From NCBI GenBank assembly GCA_965218625.1, contig CBDCLG010000014.1:30188-94187 (forward strand): 64,000 bases of DNA. The letters run 5' to 3'. The notes below the pieces were generated by a model that ran no database searches, was not told the DNA's origin, and saw only the letters and a program-made list of their open reading frames with translations. This stretch comes from Caldilineaceae bacterium. GTDB taxonomy: Bacteria; Chloroflexota; Anaerolineae; Caldilineales; Caldilineaceae. Made by a program: the position numbers and the translations under genes. Below are positions 7,058-23,340 of this stretch, in pieces. Within the stretch, counting starts at the first letter, position 1, and each line of letters begins with the position of its first letter.

Positions 7058-10000
7058 GGGCTATCCCCGCGTGTGCGGGGGTACCTGTATGCAGGGGTAG
7101 CGCAGCCCCGCGAGTGAGGGTCTATCCCCGCGTGTGCGGGGGAACCGATGGCGGTCATCGGGCGAAGATCTCCGCGTCGGGTCTATCCCCGCGTGTGCGG
7201 GGGAACCATTCCAACTGGCTATGACCCTGAACAGGAGGACGGTCTATCCCCGCGTGTGCGGGGGAACCCGCGCATCGGCCAATCGCAGCCGCACCAGCGA
7301 AGGTCTATCCCCGCGTGTGCGGGGGAACCTCTTAGAGGTGGCGCACTCGTTGGCATGGCGGGGGTCTATCCCCGCGTGTGCGGGGGAACCTTCAACCGCC
7401 GTCTTACATTCAGCACCGAACCCGGTCTATCCCCGCGTGTGCGGGGGAACCGACGTGGCGGGCAAGGCGAACTGGCACCTTTTCGGTCTATCCCCGCGTG
7501 TGCGGGGGAACCAACGAGAACTGACCAGGTGGCTGACAAAACCGCGGTCTATCCCCGCGTGTGCGGGGGAACCCTCGGAGAGTCGAACGAAACCACCAAG
7601 TATACCGGTCTATCCCCGCGTGTGCGGGGGAACCCGAGACTTCCGGGAAGGCAAGATAGATACGCTGGGTCTATCCCCGCGTGTGCGGGGAACCAGCTCG
7701 GGATGCAAGCGGGAAACGGACGGAGAAGGTCTATCCCCGCGTGTGCGGGGGAACCCGAGACTTCCGGGAAGGCAAGATAGATACGCTGGGTCTATCCCCG
7801 CGTGTGCGGGGGAACCAGCTCGGGATGCAAGCGGGAAACGGACGGAGAAGGTCTATCCCCGCGTGTGCGGGGGAACCTATAGGTATAATACGTATTATAC
7901 CTACTAACGAGGTCTATCCCCGCGTGTGCGGGGGAACCAAGTCGAGCTCGGGCGGTTCGTACCAGGATAGGGGTCTATCCCCGCGTGTGCGGGGGAACCT
8001 TACCGATCGCTCGCAGGATGCTCTCGCCAATCGGTCTATCCCCGCGTGTGCGGGGGAACCTCCTGCAGGAACACATACTCCATCGCCGGCCGGGGTCTAT
8101 CCCCGCGTGTGCGGGGGAACCAGCTCGCTCGCGTCGATGCCCCAGGCCGACATGGGTCTATCCCCGCGTGTGCGGGGGAACCCGACGGTGACGCTTGAGA
8201 ACGGCGGGAACCAGGGGTCTATCCCCGCGTGTGCGGGGGAACCGCCAGCAGGTCGCGCAGAATGTCGGTGGCCTCGGGTCTATCCCCGCGTGTGCGGGGG
8301 AACCTTAGCCGACCCAGGTTCGCATCCAGGAGGAAGAGGTCTATCCCCGCGTGTGCGGGGGAACCCTGTCAACTGGCAACCCATATCATATCTATACGAG
8401 GTCTATCCCCGCGTGTGCGGGGGAACCGATCACTTTCACCAGGAGGAGATCATAATGAAAGGTCTATCCCCGCGTGTGCGGGGGAACCAATTGCGGAGGA
8501 TCTCCCGGATGCCCAGTCCGCGGTCTATCCCCGCGTGTGCGGGGGAACCAATTGCGGAGGATCTCCCGGATGCCCAGTCCGCGGTCTATCCCCGCGTGTG
8601 CGGGGGAACCTCGCCGCGCTCAATTGACTTCGCCAAGCCGCGGGGTCTATCCCCGCGTGTGCGGGGGAACCAACGAGCACCCTGCAATGGCAATGCCCGC
8701 CAATGGTCTATCCCCGCGTGTGCGGGGGAACCGTCATCGCGGCGGCTGGGACGCTGGGGGACGAGGGTCTATCCCCGCGTGTGCGGGGGAACCCCGAACG
8801 CGCCGCTCGTGCTCCGGGACGGAGAGGGTCTATCCCCGCGTGTGCGGGGGAACCGCCGACAAGACCCGCCCCGGGCCGATCAAAATGGGTCTATCCCCGC
8901 GTGTGCGGGGGAACCAGCGCAACCGCATTCCCGGCCTCGAACGCAGCCGGTCTATCCCCGCGTGTGCGGGGAACCTCGGAGGCATGAACTCGGCGATGAC
9001 GGCGGATGGGTCTATCCCCGCGTGTGCGGGGGAACCTACGTATCAATGGCGCATCTCTGAGCTTGATGAGGTCTATCCCCGCGTGTGCGGGGGAACCAGA
9101 AAATGGCTAGATTACGGAGTAGAGAAGCGGGTCTATCCCCGCGTGTGCGGGGGAACCGGCGTGATACGAGACGCGCCCGCGCCGTGACGCGGTCTATCCC
9201 CGCGTGTGCGGGGGAACCGGCGGGGGTGGGGACTCAATCCTACGGTTTAACGGTCTATCCCCGCGTGTGCGGGGGAACCACAAAATTGAGCCGCGGCCCC
9301 AAGGCGGGACAGGGTCTATCCCCGCGTGTGCGGGGGAACCTCGCGCGTCTTGCGTAGCCTAGTACGGAGAAAGGGTCTATCCCCGCGTGTGCGGGGGAAC
9401 CACAAAATTGAGCCGCGGCCCCAAGGCGGGACAGGGTCTATCCCCGCGTGTGCGGGGAACCTCGCGCGTCTTGCGTAGCCTAGTACGGAGAAAGGGTCTA
9501 TCCCCGCGTGTGCGGGGGAACCGATTATGAAACATCTCAGCCTGCACGACGACAAGGTCTATCCCCGCGTGTGCGGGGGAACCAGTGGGCAGAAGACAAC
9601 GATTCTGCCATCCTCGGGTCTATCCCCGCGTGTGCGGGGGAACCCAAACCGGGACGCCAGGCGGCTTGTGACGGTGCGGTCTATCCCCGCGTGTGCGGGG
9701 GAACCGCACAGGGCCTGCAGCGGATGGCCGATGGCCGCGGTCTATCCCCGCGTGTGCGGGGGAACCGAGGGGCGGCGGGTGCTGCACTTGTACTGGTGAG
9801 GTCTATCCCCGCGTGTGCGGGGGAACCGCTCATCGGCCGTGTGCCAGGCACCCTCCACTGGGTCTATCCCCGCGTGTGCGGGGGAACCCTTGTGCTCGGC
9901 GCGCCGACGCGGGTGAGCTCAGGTCTATCCCCGCGTGTGCGGGGGAACCAACTGCGCGCGCTTTCTCCTGTTTTTGTTTGGAGGTCTATCCCCGCGTGTG

Positions 10001-13000
10001 CGGGGGAACCTACTGCGCCACCGTGTAGCCCGCTTGGGCAACAGGTCTATCCCCGCGTGTGCGGGGGAACCCCCGTTAAGACGGAGTGCAAACACCAGTA
10101 CATCGGTCTATCCCCGCGTGTGCGGGGGAACCGGTTGGCGTCCTCCTGCGTGGCCAGCCGCTAAGGGTCTATCCCCGCGTGTGCGGGGGAACCCCAGACA
10201 GTGCCTGCGCGCGCTCTGGTACTCGGGGTCTATCCCCGCGTGTGCGGGGGAACCCTAGACGATGTAAAACTCGCCTATGGGCCTGAAGGTCTATCCCCGC
10301 GTGTGCGGGGGAACCGAAAGCCTGCCAGGATCAGGGCAAACCCGCGGAGGTCTATCCCCGCGTGTGCGGGGGAACCAATACCCCAACGAAAACCCAGCCC
10401 CCCTGTCAGGGTCTATCCCCGCGTGTGCGGGGGAACCTACACGCTGGCGGGGCGCGAATCGTGGATGGACGGTCTATCCCCGCGTGTGCGGGGGAACCAT
10501 TGCCAGCCCGCGCAGCTGGCGGTAACGAACGGGTCTATCCCCGCGTGTGCGGGGGAACCGCAGGCATGATGGTCTCCTCGGAGTACGAACCCGGTCTATC
10601 CCCGCGTGTGCGGGGGAACCTCGACGCTGACGACGCAGTGGCTGGGGAGGACGGGTCTATCCCCGCGTGTGCGGGGGAACCGTGACCGGGTCGTTATATC
10701 CGCTTGGCTTGTCGGGTCTATCCCCGCGTGTGCGGGGGAACCCACGCCGCCGCGCCGTGGTACTCGGCGCCGACGGGTCTATCCCCGCGTGTGCGGGGGA
10801 ACCATCATCTCGGCGTAGTCCTCCGGCTCCTCGGTCGGTCTATCCCCGCGTGTGCGGGGGAACCGGCTCGGGCGTGCAGATGCGGCATTCGGCGACGGGT
10901 CTATCCCCGCGTGTGCGGGGGAACCCATCGCTGCCGGTTTTGACTGGCCGGATGAGCGGGTCTATCCCCGCGTGTGCGGGGGAACCTAGCCCGGATTATT
11001 GACTGGTGCATACCGAAAAGGTCTATCCCCGCGTGTGCGGGGGAACCTAGCCCGGATTATTGACTGGTGCATACCGAAAAGGTCTATCCCCGCGTGTGCG
11101 GGGGAACCTGCGCCTGGCCCGCATCCCGCCCCGCCGCCAAAGGTCTATCCCCGCGTGTGCGGGGGAACCTGCGCCTGGCCCGCATCCCGCCCCGCCGCCA
11201 AAGGTCTATCCCCGCGTGTGCGGGGGAACCGGTACCACATCGCGGACGCGTACAACATGACGAGGTCTATCCCCGCGTGTGCGGGGGAACCTGATCAAGC
11301 GACGCATATTGGTCACTGACCAAGGGTCTATCCCCGCGTGTGCGGGGGAACCCGCGGCGCAGTCGCTTGACAAGTGAGGTGAAAAGGTCTATCCCCGCGT
11401 GTGCGGGGGAACCGGAAAAGGAGTCTGTCGAAAATAATGCGGAAAAGGTCTATCCCCGCGTGTGCGGGGGAACCTCCGCCACAGCTTCGCCTCCCGCTCG
11501 TTCCCCGGGTCTATCCCCGCGTGTGCGGGGGAACCTCCGCCACAGCTTCGCCTCCCGCTCGTTCCCCGGGTCTATCCCCGCGTGTGCGGGGGAACCGGCC
11601 TTCACTGGCGCAGGTGATGGCTAGCCATGGGTCTATCCCCGCGTGTGCGGGGGAACCGACCGGCAGATCATCGGGGCGCTGACGGCGATGGGTCTATCCC
11701 CGCGTGTGCGGGGGAACCTGTCGGCATTGCTGGTCAGGGCTCGCTCGATAAGGTCTATCCCCGCGTGTGCGGGGGAACCAGGGCTGTCCATCCGTTCCTG
11801 TCGAAATTAGACGGTCTATCCCCGCGTGTGCGGGGGAACCCATACGATGGCGGTACGGGTGGCCGGAAGGCTGGGTCTATCCCCGCGTGTGCGGGGGAAC
11901 CCCGCTGAAAGCGATGTAGGGGCGGGCACATTGAGGTCTATCCCCGCGTGTGCGGGGGAACCTCCTCGCCCAAGACGAGCTTACCCTCGAATCCCGGTCT
12001 ATCCCCGCGTGTGCGGGGGAACCACATTCCCGGCCGGGTCCTGCGTCACAATCGCGGGTCTATCCCCGCGTGTGCGGGGGAACCATCGACAGCGCCACAA
12101 TGTGATCGCACTCCAGGGGTCTATCCCCGCGTGTGCGGGGGAACCGCCGCCCGGGGGGAAAGGAAAAATGCAGACACTGGTCTATCCCCGCGTGTGCGGG
12201 GGAACCGCTCATCGGAACTTCGACCGCCGCGCTCTCCTCGGTCTATCCCCGCGTGTGCGGGGGAACCAGGGTGGAATTTGGCGAGGATGCGCCGCCGGTG
12301 GGTCTATCCCCGCGTGTGCGGGGGAACCGGCGGCCCTGCGGGTGGAGACGATGCGCGACAGGGTCTATCCCCGCGTGTGCGGGGGAACCCCGCGGACGGG
12401 GGAGAGGGTGAGTATCGTGTACGGTCTATCCCCGCGTGTGCGGGGGAACCGAAGGAAAGAGCAACTGCCTAATGGGCACATCCGGTCTATCCCCGCGTGT
12501 GCGGGGGAACCTACCTGGCGGCGTGATGCTGGACGGGGACCAAAGGTCTATCCCCGCGTGTGCGGGGGAACCCCCGACGGGCAGCGGGTCGGGCTGGTGG
12601 CTCCACGGTCTATCCCCGCGTGTGCGGGGGAACCCTTGACGTGATGCCGCCCGTCATTCCTGGGGAAGGTCTATCCCCGCGTGTGCGGGGGAACCGTGGA
12701 CGTAAAGCGTGGTCAATTTCGATTGCGGGGTCTATCCCCGCGTGTGCGGGGGAACCAAGACTGTGACTACTGATATATGATTGTTAATGGGTCTATCCCC
12801 GCGTGTGCGGGGGAACCCCGATCTTCCCGGCTGTATATGTCCAGACTACAGGTCTATCCCCGCGTGTGCGGGGGAACCGGGCCCTGCGGTCGCAGTCGGT
12901 GTTGCGGTAGCGGTCTATCCCCGCGTGTGCGGGGGAACCGCCATCGCCGCCTCGACCTCGGCCTCCACGTCCGGTCTATCCCCGCGTGTGCGGGGGAACC

Positions 13001-13793
13001 ATCTGCAGGCCCTTCGGGAACAACCCCTCGGCGGGTCTATCCCCGCGTGTGCGGGGGAACCGGCGGCAGAGCAGATCGAGGACCTGAAGGACGCGGTCTA
13101 TCCCCGCGTGTGCGGGGGAACCGTTGGCATTGCCGACACCGACGAGGCGGTCAAGGGTCTATCCCCGCGTGTGCGGGGGAACCTCGCATTTTCGTTTCCT
13201 TTGGTGAAAATCGGTAGGTCTATCCCCGCGTGTGCGGGGGAACCGTGTGGTTAAAAACAAAGGCAGCAACGGACATAGGTCTATCCCCGCGTGTGCGGGG
13301 GAACCTGAACTGCATAAAGCGTGGAATTGGGGATACCGGGTCTATCCCCGCGTGTGCGGGGGAACCCGGGCGCAAGTGGCCGACTGTATCCCTGTCCTGG
13401 GTCTATCCCCGCGTGTGCGGGGGAACCACCTCGGCGGTCAGCGGATCCCACGACAGCCCCGGTCTATCCCCGCGTGTGCGGGGGAACCCATCACTGGAGG
13501 GAACACAATGAGCGACCGACAGGTCTATCCCCGCGTGTGCGGGGGAACCTGGGAGATGCCGGTTGAGGATGCGCACGCGATGGGTCTATCCCCGCGTGTG
13601 CGGGGGAACCAAGCTCAGAGCCAGAGACGCCGAACAAGACGGCGGTCTATCCCCGCGTGTGCGGGGGAACCGCGATAGTCGTGTGCGTTGCGTTGTCGAG
13701 AATCGGTCTATCCCCGCGTGTGCGGGGGAACCCCTGTGTCCGGCATCTCGCTCAAGTACCAGTACGGTCTATCCCCGCGTGTGCGGGGGAACC
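7058..13793 (-). CRISPR. Type I-E CRISPR array: 111 repeats (110 canonical/near-canonical plus 1 degenerate terminal) and 110 spacers
   Basis: 28-bp repeat GGTCTATCCCCGCGTGTGCGGGGGAACC on the + strand. The reverse complement, GGTTCCCCCGCACACGCGGGGATAGACC, has the E. coli I-E form (stem-loop plus ATAxACC handle), so the crRNA sense is the minus strand. I located every repeat start by hand: 61-bp period, spacers mostly 33 nt, a few 32 or 34. The degenerate repeat at 7058-7085 (2 mismatches) marks the leader-distal end. Three repeats lack one G (7668-7694, 8949-8975, 9435-9461). Confidence 0.98.
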
Positions 13794-13839: not shown

Positions 13840-14127
13840 CTATCTATACTTTACCAAATAGGTCCCGTCGGCGTCGACTATCTCCTTCGGCGCCTCTCCC
13901 AAGACCCGGATCCGCTGGCCTCCCACGGCTGACGGCTCGCGCCAAGTCATAACTATTGATCCTTGCCGCATCTCGTCATACCACTTTGTAAGGACTTTCC
14001 AAACCCTTTCCCTTATGCCGCTCGTCATGTTTGGTGACGTATATACGCCCGGCGCGATCTCCAGCATAGCCGAAGCAAGAAATCCTCGATAACGGGCCGC
14101 TACATTGGTCGTGACGACAACTGTCAT
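13840..14127 (-). CDS. cas2: CRISPR-associated endoribonuclease Cas2 (I-E)
   Basis: MTVVVTTNVAARYRGFLASAMLEIAPGVYTS... parallels E. coli Cas2 (MSMLVVVTENVPPRLRGRL..LLEVRAGVYVG). ATG at 14127 is preceded by AAGGAG. The track ORF start at 14175 would overlap cas1. Confidence 0.9.
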   Translation of the reverse strand: MTVVVTTNVAARYRGFLASAMLEIAPGVYTSPNMTSGIRERVWKVLTKWYDEMRQGSIVMTWREPSAVGGQRIRVLGEAPKEIVDADGTYLVKYR

Positions 14128-14155
14128 CCCTGACTCCTTTCTTTCCGTTCCACCG

Positions 14156-15058
14156 TCATGTCGATGTTCCCTCAATGGGCTGAATATTCTCGAACAGCGT
14201 CTTTATGCAGTCGATCATTTTGGGGATGCTCCTTTGCGTTCGAAGCATTTCCCCCGTGGCCTTGCGCGTCTGCCTCTCAATGTCCAGGTGGGGCTCTGCC
14301 ATCACAGCCTTGGCAGATTTGAACGCGGCAGGAAGCAGAATGGTGTCGCGAAAGAGATCTGCAATGTCCAGAGCGAAGGCGTCGCCGCTGTGCTCGTGAA
14401 TGAATCCCAACTGAGGAATTGCGCCCACAGCCATGACCGCAATGACTGCTGCAGAGGTTACTGCGACCGAAGCGTGGTTGATGGCCTGATTCGGAATGTC
14501 CGCCGCCAATGGGTTCTTGCGGTCGTAGCGGCGCCCCCGCCACGGGATATCGTATTGTTGGGCAAGATTCTTGTAGGTCTGCCTCATGCGCGCGCCCTCA
14601 ATCCCCCGCAGTACGTCAATATCCGTATGCGGCACAATTTCGCCCAAACGCAGTGCGTACATCTTGCGCGCAACGGCAATGCGGCTACCGCCGGCGTCAC
14701 CCCAGGCGCGCATCTGCCTGCGGGCGATCTCGGACGTGTCCGGCATCAGCGGCGGCGCGGTGTAACAGCGGACCCCATCCTCGCCAACCGCTACAAGGGC
14801 CGTCCCGTGCCGCGCCATCAGCCGCAAGGCGTCATGGCTTACTGTGGAGCCCGGCCCAAGAAGAATCATCGAAAGGGTCTGAAACGGAATTCCATATTCG
14901 CCGCGCTCCAGCGGACTCTTCGAATCTGGCGAAGCATCGCGTTGGAATCGAAGGGTGCCATCATGTACCGTGAGGGCCCCCCGCGACAGCCACAGCAGGC
15001 CATGACGGTCAGCATGCGGTATCCGTGCGGTCTCAAGTCCCAGTCTTCCTCGTAGCAT
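14156..15058 (-). CDS. cas1: CRISPR-associated endonuclease Cas1 (I-E)
   Basis: From MLRGRLGLETARIPHADRHGLLWL..., collinear with E. coli Cas1 (GTRVSHAAVRL / LRGIEG.R.R..Y / NHA.. motifs). ATG at 15058 is preceded by GGGGGAGG. The longer track ORF (to 15601) overlaps cas6e and is rejected. Confidence 0.9.
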   Translation of the reverse strand: MLRGRLGLETARIPHADRHGLLWLSRGALTVHDGTLRFQRDASPDSKSPLERGEYGIPFQTLSMILLGPGSTVSHDALRLMARHGTALVAVGEDGVRCYTAPPLMPDTSEIARRQMRAWGDAGGSRIAVARKMYALRLGEIVPHTDIDVLRGIEGARMRQTYKNLAQQYDIPWRGRRYDRKNPLAADIPNQAINHASVAVTSAAVIAVMAVGAIPQLGFIHEHSGDAFALDIADLFRDTILLPAAFKSAKAVMAEPHLDIERQTRKATGEMLRTQRSIPKMIDCIKTLFENIQPIEGTST

Positions 15059-17910: not shown

Positions 17911-18507
17911 TCATTCTGAGGGTGTGTTTTGCCGTTCAGTCCTGAAGTACTCGCGGGCGATGCGGCGCCGCGCCCGTTCGGCGGCCTCTTCGTTGTAGCC
18001 ATCGTTGAGAATAAAGGAAGCCATCTCCCGCCAGTTGAAAGGCTGGCCAGCGGCAGCCAGCATTCGAAAGAGTCGCGCAAGCAGCGAACGCAGGATCGGC
18101 CCGCGAGCGGTCAACAGGCGATTCAGGCGTGACTCGCTGTAGTAGGCGGCGGTGCGCTGACTATCGCCGCCGCAGTAGAGAGCCCGGCCGACTGGCATCT
18201 CAAAGTCATGTGCTGTGCGGCCGTCGCCCGAGCCGGTCGGAGTCATCACTGCAATGCCATGCAGGATGAGCGCCCACTTGTCCTCAATCTTCTGGCTGCC
18301 CAGCAACTCGTGCTGGGCCAGCAGGCGCCAGACAACCGCCGCGTCGGGCGCGTTGGGGTCCATGCGCCGAAGTTCGGCCAGGTCCCGGCGAAGAAAGTTT
18401 TCGTTGGCCATTTCATGGGCAAGAGAGACAGCGATCACTCCCCAACTCGCGGGCCGGCGCTTGCGTGTTGGCGGGCTGCCGCTGTCAACAGTATCAGTTG
18501 TCATCAT
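17911..18507 (-). CDS. cse2: Cse2 (CasB, Cas11e small subunit)
   Basis: 198-aa, Arg-rich helical protein between cse1 and cas7. Its start overlaps the cse1 stop (ATGA at 18504-18507). Confidence 0.8.
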   Translation of the reverse strand: MMTTDTVDSGSPPTRKRRPASWGVIAVSLAHEMANENFLRRDLAELRRMDPNAPDAAVVWRLLAQHELLGSQKIEDKWALILHGIAVMTPTGSGDGRTAHDFEMPVGRALYCGGDSQRTAAYYSESRLNRLLTARGPILRSLLARLFRMLAAAGQPFNWREMASFILNDGYNEEAAERARRRIAREYFRTERQNTPSE

Positions 18508-20093
18508 TCCTCATCTCCTTCATCTGGATTGTCAAAAAGGAAGGGCAATCCCTGCGCCCCCCGGATTCTTCCTTCGAAGAGACTTTCGGCGTTGGCGCGG
18601 GCGCGATAGCGGTGGATGGCGGGACAGGGCAGCGCCTCCTGGGCCTCCTGCAGGATTCTGCGCGCCCGGCTGATGGTGCCGTTCTCGTCATTCAGCAGCC
18701 ACTCTCGGCGGATGCGGCGGCGCGCTCCGCTGTCCTCGCTTTCAAACTCGGCCTGTAAGCCCTCGAAGAAGCGGGCATCAACGAACTCGTCGAGCCTGTT
18801 GAGCCAGGGGCGGGCAAGGACGCGATGTTCAGGGCTGACATTGGTGCTATCGCCCCGGGCCGCGAAGACCTGAATCGCGTGGCTGAGGATGCGCTGGAGC
18901 GTGCCGATGTTTTCGATGCGCTCCCGCGCTACGCGGCCCAGTTCATCCATGCTCTCGCGCCGCATCAGCGCCCTCTTGGCTTTGGCGCCGATTGGGATGA
19001 TGCGTTCGTAATAGCCTTCGGTCTTGCCCTGCCCCCTCACCAACGCACGCGCAAGAAGCAGGGTCGGCGCGGACGAGGTTTTTTCGGAGTTGGTTGGTCG
19101 CAAGAGAGCGGGCTGCTCCCAGTTCGCGGAAGTGAGGTATTCGATCACTCTCCTGTAGGTAAATCCTCCGCTGGCAAGAGTCAGAGCTTTATTCTCCTTT
19201 GTGTTGACGGGCATCCAGGGGTCGCCGGTGACGCCGTTCAGGTTTTTTGCTTCGATCCGGGCTGCTTTCGAGCTCGTTCTGAGAGCATACAGACGGCCGG
19301 CAGGGTCAAGACATAAGCGAATGCGCCGGCAGATCTCGATATAGTACGGATTTAACTGGTCTGAGAGCAATGACTCGCTCTTGGTCCCGTCCCATGGGCG
19401 GGTCCACAGGAGCGAGATGCCATCCTCGATCATGGGATAGTCGGCGACCAAGGAGGCGTGCGTCTCGAACAGCCTGGCTATGTCACGGCGCAAATGGGCT
19501 CCGGGTCTTGTGGAAGGTGTGAGCGAGAAGGCTGCCCGGCTGCCCAACCCGCCGTTCATCTTCGAGATCCCGTAGTTGCCGGCGCCACTGAAGCCCTCCA
19601 TCGTCTGCAGCGTGATCAGGGCGAAGATCCAGTCGTCCGCTTCAGCCTGTGCGGCCACAGCTGACTTGATGTCGTGATTCTTGGAAAGAACCAGCATATC
19701 CAAAGCATCGGGAGTTGGGACAGGGGTCTTGTAATCCTTCAGCTTATCGTCCGACCTTGCCGGCGGCTGCATAAAGGCGGGGCGGGTGATTTCTTCAATC
19801 ACCAGGCGCCATGGCTCGTCATCCGGGAATTCCGGGGTCAGGCCGCGGATCAACTCCAGCCACTGCCCTGGATCTTTCGGCGGCTCGCTCATCCCTGCCT
19901 TGTGCAGTGCCATTACGCCCAGCTGGACGAGGAAAGCGTGCCAGGCGTGGCGCTGGTGGGGCCTGAGCGCGGGGAATGCGGTTACCTGATCCTGAATCAT
20001 CAAGGCAAAGGTTTCCGGCAAAGTCGCGTGGGCTAGCGACCCACCTGATGTAGTGATTCTTATGATAGGATCCATCAGGATGTTATCAACCAC
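18504..20093 (-). CDS. cse1: Cse1 (CasA, Cas8e large subunit)
   Basis: 529 aa, first gene of the Cascade operon. GTG start at 20093 with AAGGAGG ~10 nt upstream. Size and position fit Cas8e. Confidence 0.85.
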   Translation of the reverse strand: MVDNILMDPIIRITTSGGSLAHATLPETFALMIQDQVTAFPALRPHQRHAWHAFLVQLGVMALHKAGMSEPPKDPGQWLELIRGLTPEFPDDEPWRLVIEEITRPAFMQPPARSDDKLKDYKTPVPTPDALDMLVLSKNHDIKSAVAAQAEADDWIFALITLQTMEGFSGAGNYGISKMNGGLGSRAAFSLTPSTRPGAHLRRDIARLFETHASLVADYPMIEDGISLLWTRPWDGTKSESLLSDQLNPYYIEICRRIRLCLDPAGRLYALRTSSKAARIEAKNLNGVTGDPWMPVNTKENKALTLASGGFTYRRVIEYLTSANWEQPALLRPTNSEKTSSAPTLLLARALVRGQGKTEGYYERIIPIGAKAKRALMRRESMDELGRVARERIENIGTLQRILSHAIQVFAARGDSTNVSPEHRVLARPWLNRLDEFVDARFFEGLQAEFESEDSGARRRIRREWLLNDENGTISRARRILQEAQEALPCPAIHRYRARANAESLFEGRIRGAQGLPFLFDNPDEGDEE

Positions 20094-20122
20094 TTGACAT
20101 TGACCTCCTTACTGCGATACTC

Positions 20123-20333
20123 TGCCTCCGAAAACGTAGAGACTTTGTAAATGAAGTATGGACAACTTCAGTCTCTATCGAAGAGTGGCTGCTATTGTAC
20201 GTCATACCAATGTCGAATTGTGACCCTGCAGGACAGAAGTGCCTCCGACACTGCCTGGACAAGGAGATTCGTGAAACTTCCTGGATCGTTTTTTCCCAGA
20301 CGAGAATCTGCTCCACAGTAGAATTGCCTCCGA
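20123..20333. repeat. Three dispersed copies of the 9-mer TGCCTCCGA (TCGGAGGCA on the cas-operon strand)
   Basis: Exact copies at 20123-20131, 20240-20248 and 20325-20333, all within the 250 bp between the mini-CRISPR target site and the cse1 start. Flanks are not similar. Confidence 0.6.
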
Positions 20334-20343
20334 GAGGATTAGG

Positions 20344-20379
20344 GGACATAAAGGGTTCGTTCCATTAGACTAAGTATTT
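20344..20379 (-). promoter_or_regulatory. Partial protospacer for the mini-CRISPR spacer, with AA(A) 5' flank; candidate Cascade operator
   Basis: The minus strand from 20376 down reads TACTTAGTCTAATGGAA... versus spacer GACTTACTCTAACGGAA.... Positions 2-17 match 14/16. The flank at 20377-20379 reads AAA on the minus strand. A TATAAT-like TCTAAT (20369-20364, minus) lies inside it. Confidence 0.55.
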
Positions 20380-20477
20380 AACAAACTTGATCGCTGAACA
20401 GGGTAGCATATTGGATGGTCAGCTGTCAACAGTAAACAAGCCTCAGTCGCCGATCGCTAACGAAACGCAAACAATAG

Positions 20478-20566
20478 TACTGCCCCGTACATGCGGGGAT
20501 AGACCGACTTACTCTAACGGAATCTCGAACAAGAGAAACATTTCCCCGCACACGCGGGGTTATATG
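20478..20566 (+). CRISPR. Degenerate one-spacer mini-CRISPR (psiR-psiS-psiR), inverted relative to the main array; CreR/CreA-like candidate
   Basis: psiR1 is at 20478-20505 (TACTGCCCCGTACATGCGGGGATAGACC; 22/28 to the crRNA-sense repeat, handle ATAGACC intact, hairpin kept through a G-U pair). The spacer is at 20506-20538/9. psiR2 is at 20540-20566 (ATTTCCCCGCACACGCGGGGTTATATG; hairpin perfect, handle lost). The repeat-to-repeat period of 61 nt equals that of the main array. Confidence 0.7.
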
Positions 20567-20613
20567 GGGTGCCAGCCCTGCGTGTCAAGAGTTACCTTAT
20601 ACAAGCTCCGCCA

Positions 20614-23340
20614 TTAGAGCCGCGATAACCCCAGGCGGTCGTAGCGGAAACGCCTGTCTCCAATCCTGAACTCTATTCCACCTTCGTTGGCCGTCCAGGG
20701 GACCGGATCCTCACCCGTAAGTCCATGCGCCATGCGGCCGGGGATCACGATCTGCTCAATTGTGTAGTCGTCGGCAAAGGGGCTGGGGGCTGCCGGCTCC
20801 AGGCCGATCTCTACGCCCTCATCCCCCAGCCTCGTGCGAATCCTCATCTCCGCATCGGGGAATACGACATCGCGATTGTCCTCGTAGAAGGATCTGTCCC
20901 AGCGCAAGATCACCTGCGTGGCGGTCAGGTTGTCAGCGATGAAGGCGCCCTCAATTCTATTAGCGTGCTCGGCCCAGTCCTCTCCCATTCCTGCAGAGAT
21001 GGCGTTGAGGACATCAGGATGTGTGGCGCGTTCAACCAGTTGCCGGTTCATCTGGGGGATAATCCAGGGCGAACCGGCGGCTGCATGTTCATCGATTAGC
21101 CGCCTCGTGGCCTCCAGGATGCGTAGGTCTTCGTAGACGAAGCCATTCGGACCGAGGCCGTTGGTATCTCGTCTGCGTGTAAGCAAGGGCGAGAGATCGG
21201 CATCAGTCGGTACCAGAACGAGGCAAGCAGGGCGGCGATAGTTTTCGGGGCGGTCGGTGCGTTGGTGCCGGTGGAGTCTGCCGATCCGCTGCAGCAGGAC
21301 ATCCATCGGGCAAAGATCCGTGATCAGCAGGTCGGCATCGATGTCCAGCGACTGTTCCAGCGTCTGCGTTCCGACGACTATGCGTCCTCCGGGTTTCCGC
21401 TTCCTGCCGATCTGTTCCTCCACCGCTTCGTCCAGGTGTCTGCGGTCCTCGGCTGCATACCTGCCGTGGTGGGTAGCGGGCACGCCGTTGCAGGTGAAGA
21501 GCAATCCGGATTCTGCTGAATCTTCCTGCACCGTCCGGGCCATCTCCTCCACGGCGTGCTGGGTCTGAACCGCGTGCCCCACGGTATTTCGGATGATGAG
21601 AATCTTGGCCCCAAGCCGCGCTGCCGCGACCGCGCGCTCCGCCACCGAGGCAAACTCCTCCATTTCTGCTATTGCTTCAACCTGAACCGTCTTGCTCCGG
21701 CCGCCCTCTCCCACCTTGATAAGCTGTTCTTGCTTCTCCCCACGCGTTGTGATGGCCGGGTAGCGGGCCGCGATTGCTTCGTCCAGCGAGATGCTGTCGC
21801 CAGCAGCAACCCGACCAGGCGCAGACAGTCGCTGCCGGGCAACCGAACCGAGGGTGGCCGACATAAGACAGGCGTAGCCGCCGGCGCCTAGATGGGCTTC
21901 CAGCAGGTGTTCAAGGATAGCGCGCATATATTGATCTGAAGCGTGGACCTCGTCGACCACCAACAGACTGCGGGCCAGGCAAGCTGCGCGCACATGCGCG
22001 TGACGCACCTGCAAGGCAGCCATCATCGCCTGGTCGATCGTTCCCACCGCGATCTGGGCCGCCAGGAAGCGCTTGGCGCTCTCTGCCGCCCAGCGGCGCT
22101 TGATAACCGCGTCGCCGGCACTGTGCTGGTCATCCCACAATACTTCGAACCGTGGAAGGCGTTGACCCGTGGCAGAGCCGACCTGCAGGTGGCCGGGAAC
22201 TGCCAAGACAACTTCAGGTGTGTTGCCATCTGGATACATATTGCGGACGAAATTCGTTACGCGCTTATGTATCTGTGTCGCTGCCGTGCGGGTCGGGAGG
22301 GCGAAGTAAAGGCCGTCGACGAGACCCGCCTGAAACATGCGGCCAAAGCGCCACAGAGCCGCCTCGGTCTTGCCCGACCCTGTCTCCGATTCAATGATGA
22401 TTAACTGTTCGTCCAATGGGAGATTCACGGTCTTCGTCTGCATGGCGTTGGGAACACCATCAATATCGAACAGCGCCGCAAAATCGGGCAACTCCTGTAA
22501 AGCGCTTCGCTGTTTCTCAAGATTCAAACCGATTTCTGAGACTGCCTTTCTGGCCCGCCCACGCGCCCTTTGGATGTAATCCTCCAGGGGCCGGTCACAG
22601 AATTCGAAGAGCCGGTCATCGGAGCCAAGCCAGTCTGCCAACGTGCACAGACCGAGGAACATGTGCTGAAAGGCAGGGGCAGACGGCAAAGGTGCGGCTC
22701 CAACTGCAAAGGCGGCAGGAAACCAGTTGCGTACCAGCCGGAAGATGTGTTTGAGACAGTGGCGCGGGTTGATGTTTCCTATGGGCCGCCAACCGGCTGG
22801 ATTGGCTGCGTAGTTGGCGGAGAGATTAAGCGGAGAGCCATGATGTGAAAGCGCTGCGACCAGCAGGCCGCTTGCAGTTGCCCCGCCTTCGTTGTCCCAT
22901 TCCAAAAGTCCTGCGGCTTCCAGCTCATCCGAAAACCACTCCGCCGTCTTGTCGTCTTTCCACTCCAGCACAGGCACGAGGTCCGTGATGTGTCCCATAC
23001 GCGGCGGTTTTCTGCTGTTCTGGGGGAAATCTTCGTTCCGCCAGATCTGCGTCTGAAAGCCGATATTCACCTTGCCAATATCATGCAGCGCGACGAGCAC
23101 ACACAGCCGCGCGACCGTCACCGCATCAAGGTCATCCAGATTGGCGGTTCGGGCAAGTCGTTTGCGGATTGTGGGCTGCTCCAGCAAGGCCTCGAAGCAG
23201 GCCGCCACATCGGCAAGATGGTGCTCGAGCAGGTGTATGCGCTCATTGTCCGTTCTGTCTGCCTTTCCCCAATGTCGCTGCGTGTAAACAGGAGGAGTCC
23301 TGGCTTTCATCTTTCTTTTGCCCCCGGCTAAGTTATACAA
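20614..23340 (-). CDS. cas3: Cas3 HD nuclease / SF2 helicase (I-E)
   Basis: 908 aa. N-terminal HD motifs (LLEHHL..., LHDIGKVN), Walker A (SETGSGKTEAAL), DEVH box (LLVVDEVHASD) and a C-terminal domain. Confidence 0.95.
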   Translation of the reverse strand: MYNLAGGKRKMKARTPPVYTQRHWGKADRTDNERIHLLEHHLADVAACFEALLEQPTIRKRLARTANLDDLDAVTVARLCVLVALHDIGKVNIGFQTQIWRNEDFPQNSRKPPRMGHITDLVPVLEWKDDKTAEWFSDELEAAGLLEWDNEGGATASGLLVAALSHHGSPLNLSANYAANPAGWRPIGNINPRHCLKHIFRLVRNWFPAAFAVGAAPLPSAPAFQHMFLGLCTLADWLGSDDRLFEFCDRPLEDYIQRARGRARKAVSEIGLNLEKQRSALQELPDFAALFDIDGVPNAMQTKTVNLPLDEQLIIIESETGSGKTEAALWRFGRMFQAGLVDGLYFALPTRTAATQIHKRVTNFVRNMYPDGNTPEVVLAVPGHLQVGSATGQRLPRFEVLWDDQHSAGDAVIKRRWAAESAKRFLAAQIAVGTIDQAMMAALQVRHAHVRAACLARSLLVVDEVHASDQYMRAILEHLLEAHLGAGGYACLMSATLGSVARQRLSAPGRVAAGDSISLDEAIAARYPAITTRGEKQEQLIKVGEGGRSKTVQVEAIAEMEEFASVAERAVAAARLGAKILIIRNTVGHAVQTQHAVEEMARTVQEDSAESGLLFTCNGVPATHHGRYAAEDRRHLDEAVEEQIGRKRKPGGRIVVGTQTLEQSLDIDADLLITDLCPMDVLLQRIGRLHRHQRTDRPENYRRPACLVLVPTDADLSPLLTRRRDTNGLGPNGFVYEDLRILEATRRLIDEHAAAGSPWIIPQMNRQLVERATHPDVLNAISAGMGEDWAEHANRIEGAFIADNLTATQVILRWDRSFYEDNRDVVFPDAEMRIRTRLGDEGVEIGLEPAAPSPFADDYTIEQIVIPGRMAHGLTGEDPVPWTANEGGIEFRIGDRRFRYDRLGLSRL

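What the first reader, a model, noticed from the sequence alone, without database searches (positions are those of the whole stretch)
20344..20566. Degenerate one-spacer mini-CRISPR between cas3 and cse1 whose spacer pairs, with Cascade-like 6-nt periodicity, to a nearby site: CreR/CreA-like Cascade-guided regulator or addiction module
Seen in the sequence. The + strand at 20478-20505 and 20540-20566 carries two diverged copies of the array repeat in crRNA sense. They are 61 nt apart, the same period as the 111-repeat array, and enclose the spacer GACTTACTCTAACGGAATCTCGAACAAGAGAAA (20506-20538). Their decay is asymmetric in exactly the way a single functional crRNA would allow. Copy 1 keeps a perfect ATAGACC 5' handle and its hairpin: the two C-to-T changes give a G-U pair and a loop change. 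Copy 2 keeps a perfect hairpin (CCCCGCACACGCGGGG) but has lost the handle. The unit is inverted relative to the main array. Its sense transcript would therefore run divergently from the cse1 operon and convergently with cas3. Spacer positions 2-17 match the minus strand at 20375-20360 (ACTTAGTCTAATGGAA vs ACTTACTCTAACGGAA), 14 of 16. The two mismatches are exactly 6 nt apart. Counted after an 8-nt handle (AUAGACCG, as in E. coli AUAAACCG), they are positions 6 and 12, the bases that are flipped out and unpaired in I-E Cascade. Pairing stops after that, and the protospacer is preceded by AA(A). By my rough estimate, a 14-nt specified match is expected about 1e-5 to 1e-4 times in this ~0.5 kb region over both strands and all offsets. 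Established knowledge: PAM plus seed-proximal partial complementarity lets Cascade bind without Cas3 cleavage. Degenerate mini-CRISPRs inside cas loci that use this have been described as CreA (antitoxin RNA of CreTA, type I-B) and CreR (cas autorepressors in I-B, I-E and V-A). Inference: this RNA loads into Cascade and represses a promoter at about 20340-20390. That promoter could be the cse1-operon promoter (autoregulation, sensing crRNA load or anti-CRISPRs). It could also drive a toxic transcript in 20094-20343, which would make the cas operon addictive. I cannot tell which.
Basis: partly seen in the sequence, partly recalled or inferred. Interest (0 to 1): 0.85.

Follow-up and report, generated by a model that had tools for sequence, protein, structure and literature searches.

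The report
CreR-type regulatory mini-CRISPR in I-E locus
Between cas3 and cse1 sits a real, degenerate one-spacer CRISPR whose RNA most likely guides Cascade to sit on (not cut) a site upstream of a small unknown gene and the Cascade operon; this kind of self-regulator has been known since 2021-2023, so it is a good new example and not a new mechanism.

Summary
Two degenerate repeats lie on the + strand at 20478-20505 and 20539-20566, 61 nt apart and inverted relative to the 111-repeat array. Their spacer matches the - strand at 20375-20360 in 14 of 16 positions. The two mismatches are guide positions 6 and 12, and the PAM is AAT. No shuffled guide out of 5000 scores as well.

Related type I-E loci settle the interpretation. 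About 40 loci (Caldilineaceae, Dehalococcoidia and Binatia MAGs) carry a mini-array in the same place and orientation. Their guides differ, and each matches its own AAN-flanked site upstream of cse1. Match frequency is 0.86-1.0 at positions 1-5 and 7-11, 0.31 at position 6, 0.14 at position 12, and background from position 18. The psiR1 hairpin is kept by compensatory changes. In relatives the site abuts or overlaps the -10 box of a clear promoter.

This is a CreR/CreA-class Cascade guide, a known kind already validated in type I-E. The added detail is that the target controls a conserved 76-aa ORF of unknown function (20316-20086). That ORF overlaps the cse1 start. In relatives, unrelated small ORFs or ParE-type pairs fill the same slot. 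Whether the ORF is a toxin is untested. The window's own promoter is unclear.

The parts
20478..20505 (+). psiR1, the degenerate repeat upstream of the spacer. Its hairpin CCCCGU-ACAU-GCGGGG is kept and the 5' handle ATAGACC is intact.
   Evidence: 6 of 28 mismatches to the array repeat. Family-wide hairpin covariation.
20499..20559 (+). Predicted mature CreR-like RNA of 61 nt: handle AUAGACC+G, guide, and the psiR2 hairpin as 3' handle. The ends are inferred from the known Cas6e cleavage rule, not measured.
   Evidence: Geometry. Cas6e is present in the operon. Inference.
20506..20538 (+). psiS, a 33-nt spacer-like sequence. Bases 20507-20522 are guide positions 1-16.
20539..20566 (+). psiR2, the degenerate repeat downstream of the spacer. 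The hairpin CCCCGCACACGCGGGG is perfect and the handle part is lost (TTATATG).
   Evidence: 7 of 28 mismatches.
20360..20375 (-). Target (protospacer on the cse1-sense strand) ACTTAGTCTAATGGAA. It matches guide positions 1-5, 7-11 and 13-16. The crRNA would pair with the + strand.
   Evidence: Homologous covarying targets at the same distance (281-282 nt from cse1) in L001 and L058.
20376..20378 (-). PAM AAT (read on the - strand).
   Evidence: The family PAM is AAT 19, AAC 10, AAG 4, AAA 2. The first base of array spacers is rarely A.
20086..20316 (-). Conserved small ORF of 76 aa, unknown family. GTG start at 20316, GGAGG 10 nt upstream at 20331-20327, an alternative ATG at 20349, and a TGA stop at 20088-20086 that overlaps the cse1 GTG. 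Presumed first gene of the repressed operon.
   Evidence: No hit in Pfam, PADLOC, PHROGs or PDB.
18504..20093 (-). cse1/casA, the first Cascade gene and the downstream beneficiary of the regulation.
20614..23340 (-). cas3, upstream on the same strand and convergent with the mini-array.
20094..20121 (+). Sigma-70-like promoter match (TTGACA-16-GATACT, preceded by TG) that points toward the mini-array. It is a candidate creR promoter and is antisense to the small ORF.
   Evidence: The same site is found in relatives L083, L087 and L007. Its function is inferred.
20424..20429 (-). Perfect TTGACA on the cse1-sense strand, homologous to the -35 box of relatives. In the window it has no good -10 at 17 nt and lies 45 nt from the PAM.
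   Evidence: Not reported as a promoter.

Best explanation
The element is a CreR/CreA-class regulatory mini-CRISPR of a complete type I-E system.

Shown by sequence and comparison: two degenerate repeats flank a spacer-like guide. The first repeat keeps what is needed to make a 5' handle and the second keeps the Cas6e hairpin. Guide positions 1-16, except 6 and 12, are identical to an AAT-flanked site 130 nt away on the cse1-sense strand.

Inferred: the + strand is transcribed and Cas6e cuts out a 61-nt RNA (about 20499-20559). This RNA loads into Cascade, and Cascade binds the site. Pairing stops after about 16-17 nt, so the R-loop stays incomplete and Cas3 does not cut. The bound complex blocks transcription of the operon that starts with the 76-aa ORF (20316-20086) and continues into cse1. 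This gives negative feedback on Cascade level. The feedback should be relieved when Cascade is titrated by abundant crRNAs or inactivated by anti-CRISPRs, as shown experimentally for CreR in other hosts.
For: 1. The anatomy and the match are reproduced and are far beyond chance.

2. The system is complete: Cas3, Cse1, Cse2, Cas7, Cas5, Cas6e and Cas1e by NCBIfam; Cas2 is inferred only from a 111-aa ORF at 13840-14175 and was not family-scanned. It also has a 111-repeat array.

3. In 80 related loci, every repeat-like sequence within the cas3-cse1 gap lies on the strand opposite to cse1.

4. There are 35 distinct guide/target pairs, and targets covary with guides. Guide position 9, for example, is T:T in the window, A:A in L001 and G:G in L087. 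Position 1 is A:A in most loci and G:G in L083.

5. Match frequency by position is 0.89-1.0 at 1-5, 0.31 at 6, 0.86-1.0 at 7-11, 0.14 at 12, 0.66-0.97 at 13-17, 0.29 at 18, and background beyond. The PAM is always AAN.

6. A control with reversed guides gives 0 of 16 hits on the right strand with an AA PAM, against 35 of 44 observed.

7. All 6 pairs of the psiR1 stem show compensatory changes, 85.8% of cells are paired, and 0 of 500 shuffles reach this.

8. In relatives the site directly follows or overlaps the -10 box of a strong promoter. Examples are L083 TTGACT-17-TATAAT, where AAT is the PAM, L087 TTGACA-17-TATATT, and L007 TTGACA-17-TATGCT.

9. Loci without any cargo ORF (L003-L008) have the target 80-113 nt from cse1, so cse1 itself must be the regulated gene there.

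10. The mechanism has been demonstrated for a Salmonella type I-E CreR (10.1101/2023.03.10.532045). Mini-arrays were predicted in about 19% of type I-E loci (PMC10120712).
Against: There are no RNA, binding or reporter data for this organism.

In the window itself no sigma-70-like promoter is found on the cse1-sense strand near the target. The homologous -10 would be TTAAAT with a poor -35 (ACCCTG). The perfect TTGACA lies about 22 nt further from the PAM than in relatives. Repression here may therefore act as a roadblock, or on a weak or unknown promoter, or the circuit may be partly decayed.

The promoter of the mini-array is not established.

Close relatives lack the element altogether (L002, L031, L082; intergenic gaps of 24-89 nt), so it is dispensable.

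The 35 guide/target pairs are phylogenetically related, not independent.
Confidence: 0.8

Rival explanations
1. CreTA/CrePA-like addiction module. The main job of the guide is to keep the 76-aa ORF silent because its product is toxic. Loss or inhibition of Cascade would then kill or arrest the cell, which protects the cas operon and counters anti-CRISPRs. This can coexist with autoregulation.
For: - The target lies directly upstream of a conserved small ORF found only in this position. There are 12 homologues among 5.8 billion proteins and 7 representatives among 1.84 billion. All three further loci I fetched through these homologues (L083-L085) place it overlapping cse1.
- All eight intact-looking loci with the ORF (the window, L081, L001, L058, L083-85, L087) also have a mini-array and a matching target; the three JGI contigs L093/95/96 also carry a mini-array and target, but I did not check them for the ORF.
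- In related loci the same slot holds unrelated small ORF families and RHH+ParE pairs.
- Published work reports toxin-antitoxin enrichment between mini-arrays and cas genes (PMC10120712) and a protein toxin, CreP, in type I-F (10.1101/2024.01.05.574328).
Against: - There is no similarity to any known toxin or to KilAC.
- The structure model has low confidence (pLDDT 67, pTM 0.27).
- The ORF is co-oriented with cse1 and overlaps it, so derepression would raise toxin and Cascade together.
- Cargo-free loci show that the guide works without any toxin.
- Amino-acid conservation is modest. Codon-position differences are 4/9/15 and 22/19/34.
Confidence: 0.22
2. A decaying remnant. The element is a dead inverted array fragment or a self-targeting spacer that has drifted, and the nearby match is left over from a local duplication with no present function.
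For: - Both repeats are degenerate.
- The window's own promoter context is poor.
- Close relatives lack the element.
- One relative (L086) shows a truncated psiR1 with no matching target.
Against: - Drift would not keep the 5' handle, the psiR1 stem through compensatory changes and the psiR2 hairpin, while letting guide and target change together, across about 40 loci.
- The near-identical strain L081 keeps the unit almost unchanged.
- The window has the best guide-target match of its subgroup.
Confidence: 0.06
3. An RNA-RNA or DNA-structure element independent of Cascade. The 16-nt inverted repeat (psiS and target) would pair within a long transcript, as an antisense or attenuator element, or would serve as a protein-binding palindrome.
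For: - A promoter-like site at 20094-20121 could produce a + strand RNA that contains both the complement of the target and psiS.
- The region folds better than shuffles, z = -3.6.
Against: - An RNA duplex gives no reason for mismatches to fall at exactly every sixth position, for a conserved AAN next to the site, or for pairing to start exactly one base after the repeat handle.
- The fold is dominated by cross-pairing between the two repeats.
- The leader between the target and cse1 shows no supporting covariation (covariation term +0.76).
- There is no Rfam match.
Confidence: 0.03

Closest known systems
CreR of the Salmonella enterica type I-E system (Liu et al., bioRxiv 10.1101/2023.03.10.532045)
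   Same: - It is a degenerate two-repeat mini-CRISPR in the cas3-casA gap.
- psiR1 keeps the 5' handle and psiR2 keeps the 3' hairpin.
- About 15 nt of PAM-proximal identity link the guide to a PAM-flanked site upstream of casA.
- It is proposed to autorepress Cascade.
   Different: - There is no sequence relationship, and the host is from a different phylum (relatives are Caldilineaceae MAGs).
- The PAM is AAT and the family PAM is AAN, not AAG.
- The match is interrupted at positions 6 and 12 and is not 15 consecutive bases.
- The target lies 281 nt from cse1, not about 140, and a 76-aa ORF sits in between.
- Nothing has been tested experimentally here.
Predicted regulatory mini-arrays of type I-E loci (Shmakov et al. 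2023, PMC10120712)
   Same: - The location is the same: a long cas3-cas8e gap, transcribed opposite to cas3.
- The prediction logic is the same: a partial seed match plus a PAM in the cas8 promoter.
- The sporadic presence among relatives and the cargo genes between mini-array and cas genes also match.
   Different: I did not check whether this clade is in that survey (its supplementary lists were not opened). The small ORF families seen here have no Pfam match or are unannotated, whereas that survey emphasised annotated toxin-antitoxin genes.
CrePA of Acinetobacter baylyi type I-F (Shu et al., bioRxiv 10.1101/2024.01.05.574328) and CreTA of type I-B and I-F
   Same: The guide RNA gene, its PAM-flanked partial target and a small gene all lie in the cas3-to-large-subunit gap. 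The small gene lies downstream of the target.
   Different: - CreP is a 103-aa KilAC-domain protein with demonstrated toxicity. The ORF here has no KilAC or other domain and its toxicity is unknown.
- CreT toxins are small RNAs.
- The subtype is I-E, for which the papers I read report only CreR, not a validated toxin module (10.1101/2024.10.29.618823).

Membership tests
CreR (Cas-regulating RNA, mini-CRISPR) | Two degenerate CRISPR repeats flank one spacer-like sequence, inside or next to the cas operon. | tested here: met
   20478-20505 and 20539-20566, 61 nt apart, between cas3 and cse1.
CreR (Cas-regulating RNA, mini-CRISPR) | psiR1 keeps the 5'-handle bases and psiR2 keeps the 3' hairpin. 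| tested here: met
   The same asymmetry holds across the family. The psiR1 stem covaries.
CreR (Cas-regulating RNA, mini-CRISPR) | Partial, PAM-proximal complementarity of psiS to a PAM-flanked site. | tested here: met
   14 of 14 pairing positions within 1-16, PAM AAT. Family profile.
CreR (Cas-regulating RNA, mini-CRISPR) | The target lies in or next to the promoter of the effector cas genes. | tested here: inconclusive
   This is clear in relatives. In the window no sigma-70-like promoter is detected at the site. The site is 281 nt upstream of cse1 and 43 nt upstream of the small ORF start.
CreR (Cas-regulating RNA, mini-CRISPR) | The RNA is expressed, processed by Cas6 and loaded into the effector, and repression depends on complementarity. 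| not testable with these tools
   This needs small-RNA sequencing and reporter assays.
CreR (Cas-regulating RNA, mini-CRISPR) | No associated toxin gene. This is what separates CreR from CreA. | tested here: inconclusive
   A conserved 76-aa ORF of unknown function follows the target. Its toxicity is unknown.
CreTA / CrePA (CRISPR-repressed toxin-antitoxin) | A toxin (CreT RNA, or CreP KilAC protein) is transcribed from the promoter that the guide targets. | tested here: not met
   There is no KilAC or any other Pfam, PADLOC or PHROG match, so the ORF is not a member of the known CreP family. Whether the ORF is a new toxin was not tested.
CreTA / CrePA (CRISPR-repressed toxin-antitoxin) | Loss of the effector or of the guide is lethal or arrests growth (addiction). 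| not testable with these tools
   This needs genetics.
Type I-E CRISPR-Cas | Cse1, Cse2, Cas7, Cas5, Cas6e, Cas3 and Cas1e, with a 28-29-nt repeat that has a CCCCGC/GCGGGG stem. | tested here: met

The most novel reading that the evidence does not exclude
The 76-aa ORF may be a CRISPR-repressed protein toxin or another guard of the cas operon. So may the unrelated small ORFs that fill the same slot in sister loci: a coiled-coil family, a beta-rich family, a Cys-rich B-box-like family, and RHH+ParE pairs. The gap between target and cse1 in this type I-E clade would then be a swappable slot for such genes under CreA control. In the papers I read, validated CRISPR-repressed toxin modules are type I-B or I-F only, so this would be a type I-E module, with new toxin families. 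A second unexcluded twist concerns a conserved promoter at the cse1 start (20094-20121). It may drive the guide gene through its own target site, so that Cascade would throttle synthesis of its own guide as well.
Probability: 0.2. Interest if true: 0.65.

Novelty: new member of a known kind. Interest (0 to 1): 0.38.

Why it matters
This is a clean, statistically strong natural example of Cascade used as a transcription factor, in a little-studied group of uncultured bacteria. The family of about 40 co-evolving guide/target pairs reads out the binding rules of Cascade directly from genomes:
- a PAM of AAN;
- pairing over positions 1-17;
- every sixth base unconstrained;
- shortened 21-22-nt guides tolerated.

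It also points to several unannotated small proteins that are placed under CRISPR control. These are candidates for new toxins or regulators. It does not reveal a new mechanism.

Tried and rejected
- Rfam scan of 19900-20800 at E<=1: no match.
- Folding of the mini-array RNA: dominated by cross-pairing between the two repeats and not informative.
- Consensus RNA structure of the leader and small-ORF region in five loci: no supporting covariation. I therefore dropped the idea of a structured leader or RNA toxin.
- Small ORF against Pfam, PADLOC, PHROGs and PDB sequences: nothing.
- AlphaFold2 on 13 sequences: pLDDT 67, pTM 0.27. This is too weak for a fold search, so none was run.
- Profile search of 1.84 billion representatives: only 7 small relatives.
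- hhalign between small-ORF family D and the beta-rich family B: unrelated.
- Search for a phage copy of this guide (a viral mimic) in IMG/VR: none.
- Metagenome pattern scan: one further true relative on three contigs, the rest chance hits.
- Manual and tool searches for a cse1-sense promoter at the window's target: none convincing.
- I first thought target positions 9-14 were a -10 box. I rejected this because no -35 accompanies them, and a proper TTGACA-17-TAnnnT sits just upstream of the PAM in relatives.

Full report
**1. What is in the window**

The window holds a complete type I-E system on the - strand.
- cas3 is at 23340-20614 and cse1 at 20093-18504. They are followed by cse2, cas7, cas5, cas6e and cas1e, then a 111-aa ORF (13840-14175) read as cas2 (the cas2 call rests only).
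- A 111-repeat array lies at 13793-7058. Its crRNA sense is GGTTCCCCCGCACACGCGGGGATAGACC, and 104 of 110 spacers are 33 nt.
- The cas3-cse1 gap is 520 bp (20094-20613). Its G+C is 46-53%, against about 60-65% around it.

**2. Check of the observation**

A search with the repeat consensus allowing 9 mismatches finds exactly two hits on the + strand of the whole window. They are 20478-20505 (6 mismatches) and 20539-20566 (7 mismatches), 61 nt apart.
- Copy 1 keeps ATAGACC and a stem with one G-U pair.
- Copy 2 keeps the exact hairpin but not the handle.

The enclosed 33-mer aligns to the - strand at 20376-20344 as .|||||.|||||.||||. This is the best match anywhere in the 64 kb on either strand.

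The array's own spacers start with C, G or T but almost never A (48/30/30/2). As in E. coli, the first spacer base corresponds to the last PAM base (established knowledge of type I-E). In that register the guide pairs at positions 1-5, 7-11 and 13-16. The mismatches are at positions 6 and 12, and the PAM is AAT.

None of 5000 shuffled guides reaches this score in the gap. Real array spacers reach at most 11 of 15.

**3. Comparative evidence**

Cse1 homologues are abundant at 58-85% identity; the two with a source name are from Caldilineaceae MAGs.

I fetched 80 loci from the genome collection and several more through exact-protein look-ups and a DNA pattern scan. The genome loci come from Caldilineaceae, Dehalococcoidia, other Chloroflexota, Binatia, one Thermodesulfobacteriota and one Entotheonella MAG.

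Of 76 loci where the cas3 end could be placed, 20 have a gap under 150 bp and 56 have a longer one. In 47 loci the gap contains repeat-like sequence. Within the gap these copies are all on the strand opposite to cse1, as in the window.

Taking the 17 nt that start one base after psiR1 as the guide, 35 of the 44 loci that score 12 or more of 15 have their best match on the cse1-sense strand with an AA dinucleotide at PAM positions -3 and -2. Reversed-guide controls with the same number of trials give 0 of 16. Six more loci were recovered with a handle-motif search.

The guides differ widely (ACTTAC..., CTTTGC..., CCATTG..., TAGCGC..., TGGTAG..., GCCTGT...) and each target follows its own guide.

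Within the window's own subgroup the same holds:
- Guide position 9 is T:T (window), A:A (L001) and G:G (L087).
- Position 1 is A:A, but G:G in L083.
- Positions 15-16 are AA:AA (window), TT:TT (L001) and TA:TA (L058, L087).

Over 35 distinct pairs the match frequency by position is as follows:

| Guide position | Match frequency |
|---|---|
| 1-5 | 0.89-1.0 |
| 6 | 0.31 |
| 7-11 | 0.86-1.0 |
| 12 | 0.14 |
| 13-17 | 0.66-0.97 |
| 18 | 0.29 |
| 19 and beyond | background |

Positions 6, 12 and 18 and beyond were not used for selection, so their background level is an independent result. It is the known signature of type I Cascade, where every sixth base is flipped out. The pairs are related by descent, so the numbers count sequences, not events.

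**4. The repeats behave as a working guide gene would need**

Across 27 psiR1 copies the handle (G)GATAGACC is nearly invariant. The 5' half of the repeat has drifted, but it still pairs. All six stem pairs show changes on both sides, 85.8% of cells are paired, and no shuffle out of 500 reaches this. Slid registers drop to 35-56%.

psiR2 keeps the hairpin sequence and loses the handle.

This is the asymmetry described for CreA and CreR (10.1101/2023.03.10.532045).

**5. Where the target sits**

In most relatives a textbook promoter lies on the cse1-sense strand immediately before the PAM, or overlaps it:
- L083: TTGACT-17-TATAAT, with AAT as the PAM
- L087: TTGACA-17-TATATT, then G, then AAC
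- L007: TTGACA-17-TATGCT
- L093: TTGACT-17-TAGAAT

Cascade bound there would cover the start-site region.

In the window this is less clear. The homologous -10 would be TTAAAT (20381-20376), with a poor -35. The perfect TTGACA at 20429-20424 lies about 22 nt further from the PAM than in L087 and L001. The scan tool reports no cse1-sense promoter there.

I therefore treat promoter occlusion as shown by analogy only. For this locus, a roadblock on a weak or unrecognised promoter remains possible.

**6. What is regulated**

Loci L003-L008 have the target 80-113 nt from cse1 and no ORF in between, so there cse1 itself is the regulated gene.

In the window the target is 281 nt from cse1, and the space is filled by an ORF.
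- A GTG at 20316 has a GGAGG 10 nt upstream, conserved in all relatives. The longest reading starts at the ATG at 20349.
- The stop at 20088-20086 overlaps the cse1 GTG at 20093.

Homologues of 76-77 aa occur at the same place in L001, L058, L083-85 and L087. The frame is open in all of them, and third-position changes are in excess (22/19/34 and 4/9/15).

The family is tiny: 12 hits in 5.8 billion proteins and 7 representatives in 1.84 billion. It has no match in Pfam, PADLOC, PHROGs or PDB sequences. The AlphaFold model is weak.

Because the ORF overlaps cse1, it is most simply read as the first gene of the repressed operon.

In other loci the same slot holds unrelated small ORFs:
- a coiled-coil family of about 55 aa;
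- a beta-rich family of about 60 aa;
- a Cys-rich family with a sub-threshold B-box match;
- RHH+ParE pairs.

This fits the published picture of cargo genes and toxin-antitoxin enrichment between mini-arrays and cas genes (PMC10120712). It also recalls CrePA in type I-F (10.1101/2024.01.05.574328). Toxicity of any of these ORFs is untested.

**7. Mechanism, with status of each step**

*Shown:* the anatomy, the match, the PAM, the covariation, the hairpin conservation and the presence of Cas6e and Cascade genes.

*From established knowledge of type I-E:* Cas6e cuts at the 3' base of the repeat stem, which leaves an 8-nt handle. A PAM plus seed pairing allows binding. Incomplete R-loops do not recruit Cas3.

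*Inferred:*
- transcription of the + strand;
- a 61-nt product (20499-20559);
- binding at 20360-20378;
- repression of the ORF-cse1 operon;
- relief when Cascade is titrated or inhibited.

A sigma-70-like site at 20094-20121 on the + strand (10 of 12, with TG) recurs at the same place in L083, L087 and L007. It is the only promoter-like match in the guide's orientation. If it drives the mini-array, the precursor would run antisense through the small ORF and through the target site. This is a lead, not a result. The site also overlaps the cse1 ribosome-binding site, which could explain its conservation.

**8. Comparison with what is known, and verdict**

The element works like CreR (validated in type I-B, I-E and V-A) and like the mini-arrays predicted in about 19% of type I-E loci (10.1101/2023.03.10.532045; PMC10120712). 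It meets all the sequence-level criteria of that class. The expression and repression criteria cannot be tested here.

It is not a member of the known CreP or CreT toxin families.

It is a new member of a known kind. The mechanism is published, including for this subtype. What remains open is the nature of the small ORF, the cargo slot and the promoter wiring.

Noticed in passing
window 20086-20316 (-), alternative start 20349: Conserved 76-aa basic ORF of unknown family between the guide's target and cse1. Its stop codon overlaps the cse1 start. It has very few homologues. In every locus I examined it sits immediately upstream of cse1 and overlaps its start; the one exception, L086, is a low-coverage contig with an apparent frameshift.
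   Followed up: partly
L009, L016, L017, L020-L022, L026, L028, L030, L035, L039, L040, L042, L045, L051, L056, L060, L065, L071, L073, L076-L080 (region upstream of cse1): In sister loci, the slot between the mini-array target and cse1 holds unrelated small ORFs. These are a coiled-coil family (E..C..LR..RN.L...I), a beta-rich family, a Cys-rich B-box-like family, RHH+ParE pairs, and in L071 a further two-ORF cargo (76 and 122 aa) that I did not scan. The three small families are not recognised by Pfam.
   Followed up: partly
window 20094-20121 (+); L083 4223-4196; L087 1669-1640; L007 7000-6972: A sigma-70-like promoter match sits at the cse1 start and points away from cse1 toward the mini-array. 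It is conserved in position across relatives with and without the small ORF. It could be the guide's promoter, convergent with the cse1 promoter. It overlaps the cse1 ribosome-binding site.
   Followed up: partly
L001, L026, L051, L058, L077, L078, L080, L083-L085, L087, L093: Many mini-arrays have a 21-22-nt spacer instead of 33 nt, which is shorter by 11-12 nt or about two 6-nt Cas7 steps. The paired 17 nt are kept. The shortening appears in several different guide lineages.
   Followed up: no
L041, window-like positions 457-1215 upstream of cse1: Here the regulatory unit (degenerate psiR1, and a guide with 15 consecutive matches to an AAC-flanked site) is directly followed by 11 more near-canonical repeats at 61-nt spacing. 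The guide is therefore the first unit of a real secondary array in the cas3-cse1 gap. L078 has three repeat copies and L066 two canonical repeats plus a distant degenerate one.
   Followed up: no
window 20544-20559 (-): The antisense of the psiR2 hairpin followed by AAATGTTTCT scores as an intrinsic-terminator-like site on the cas3/cse1 strand, just after the cas3 stop. The T run is weak, and a similar T run is absent in L003, the one relative whose psiS 3' end I read for it.
   Followed up: no
window 7058-13793: In the main array, six spacers occur twice and three repeats carry a 1-nt deletion. The repeat farthest from cas2 is degenerate (GGGCTATCCCCGCGTGTGCGGGGGTACC). The first base of spacers is C48/G30/T30/A2. 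cas2 ends only about 46 nt from the first repeat, so the leader is very short or overlaps cas2.
   Followed up: no
L086 (ENA contig, about 6x coverage): A family-D small ORF lies next to an L003-type mini-array whose psiR1 lacks its 5' half. Its guide has no matching target, and the ORF's C-terminus and the cse1 start look frameshifted. This is either a recombinant or decaying locus or an assembly artefact.
   Followed up: no
L002, L031, L082: These close relatives (Cse1 75-85% identical) have a cas3-cse1 gap of only 24-89 nt and no mini-array. The element is therefore gained or lost on short evolutionary time scales.
   Followed up: partly
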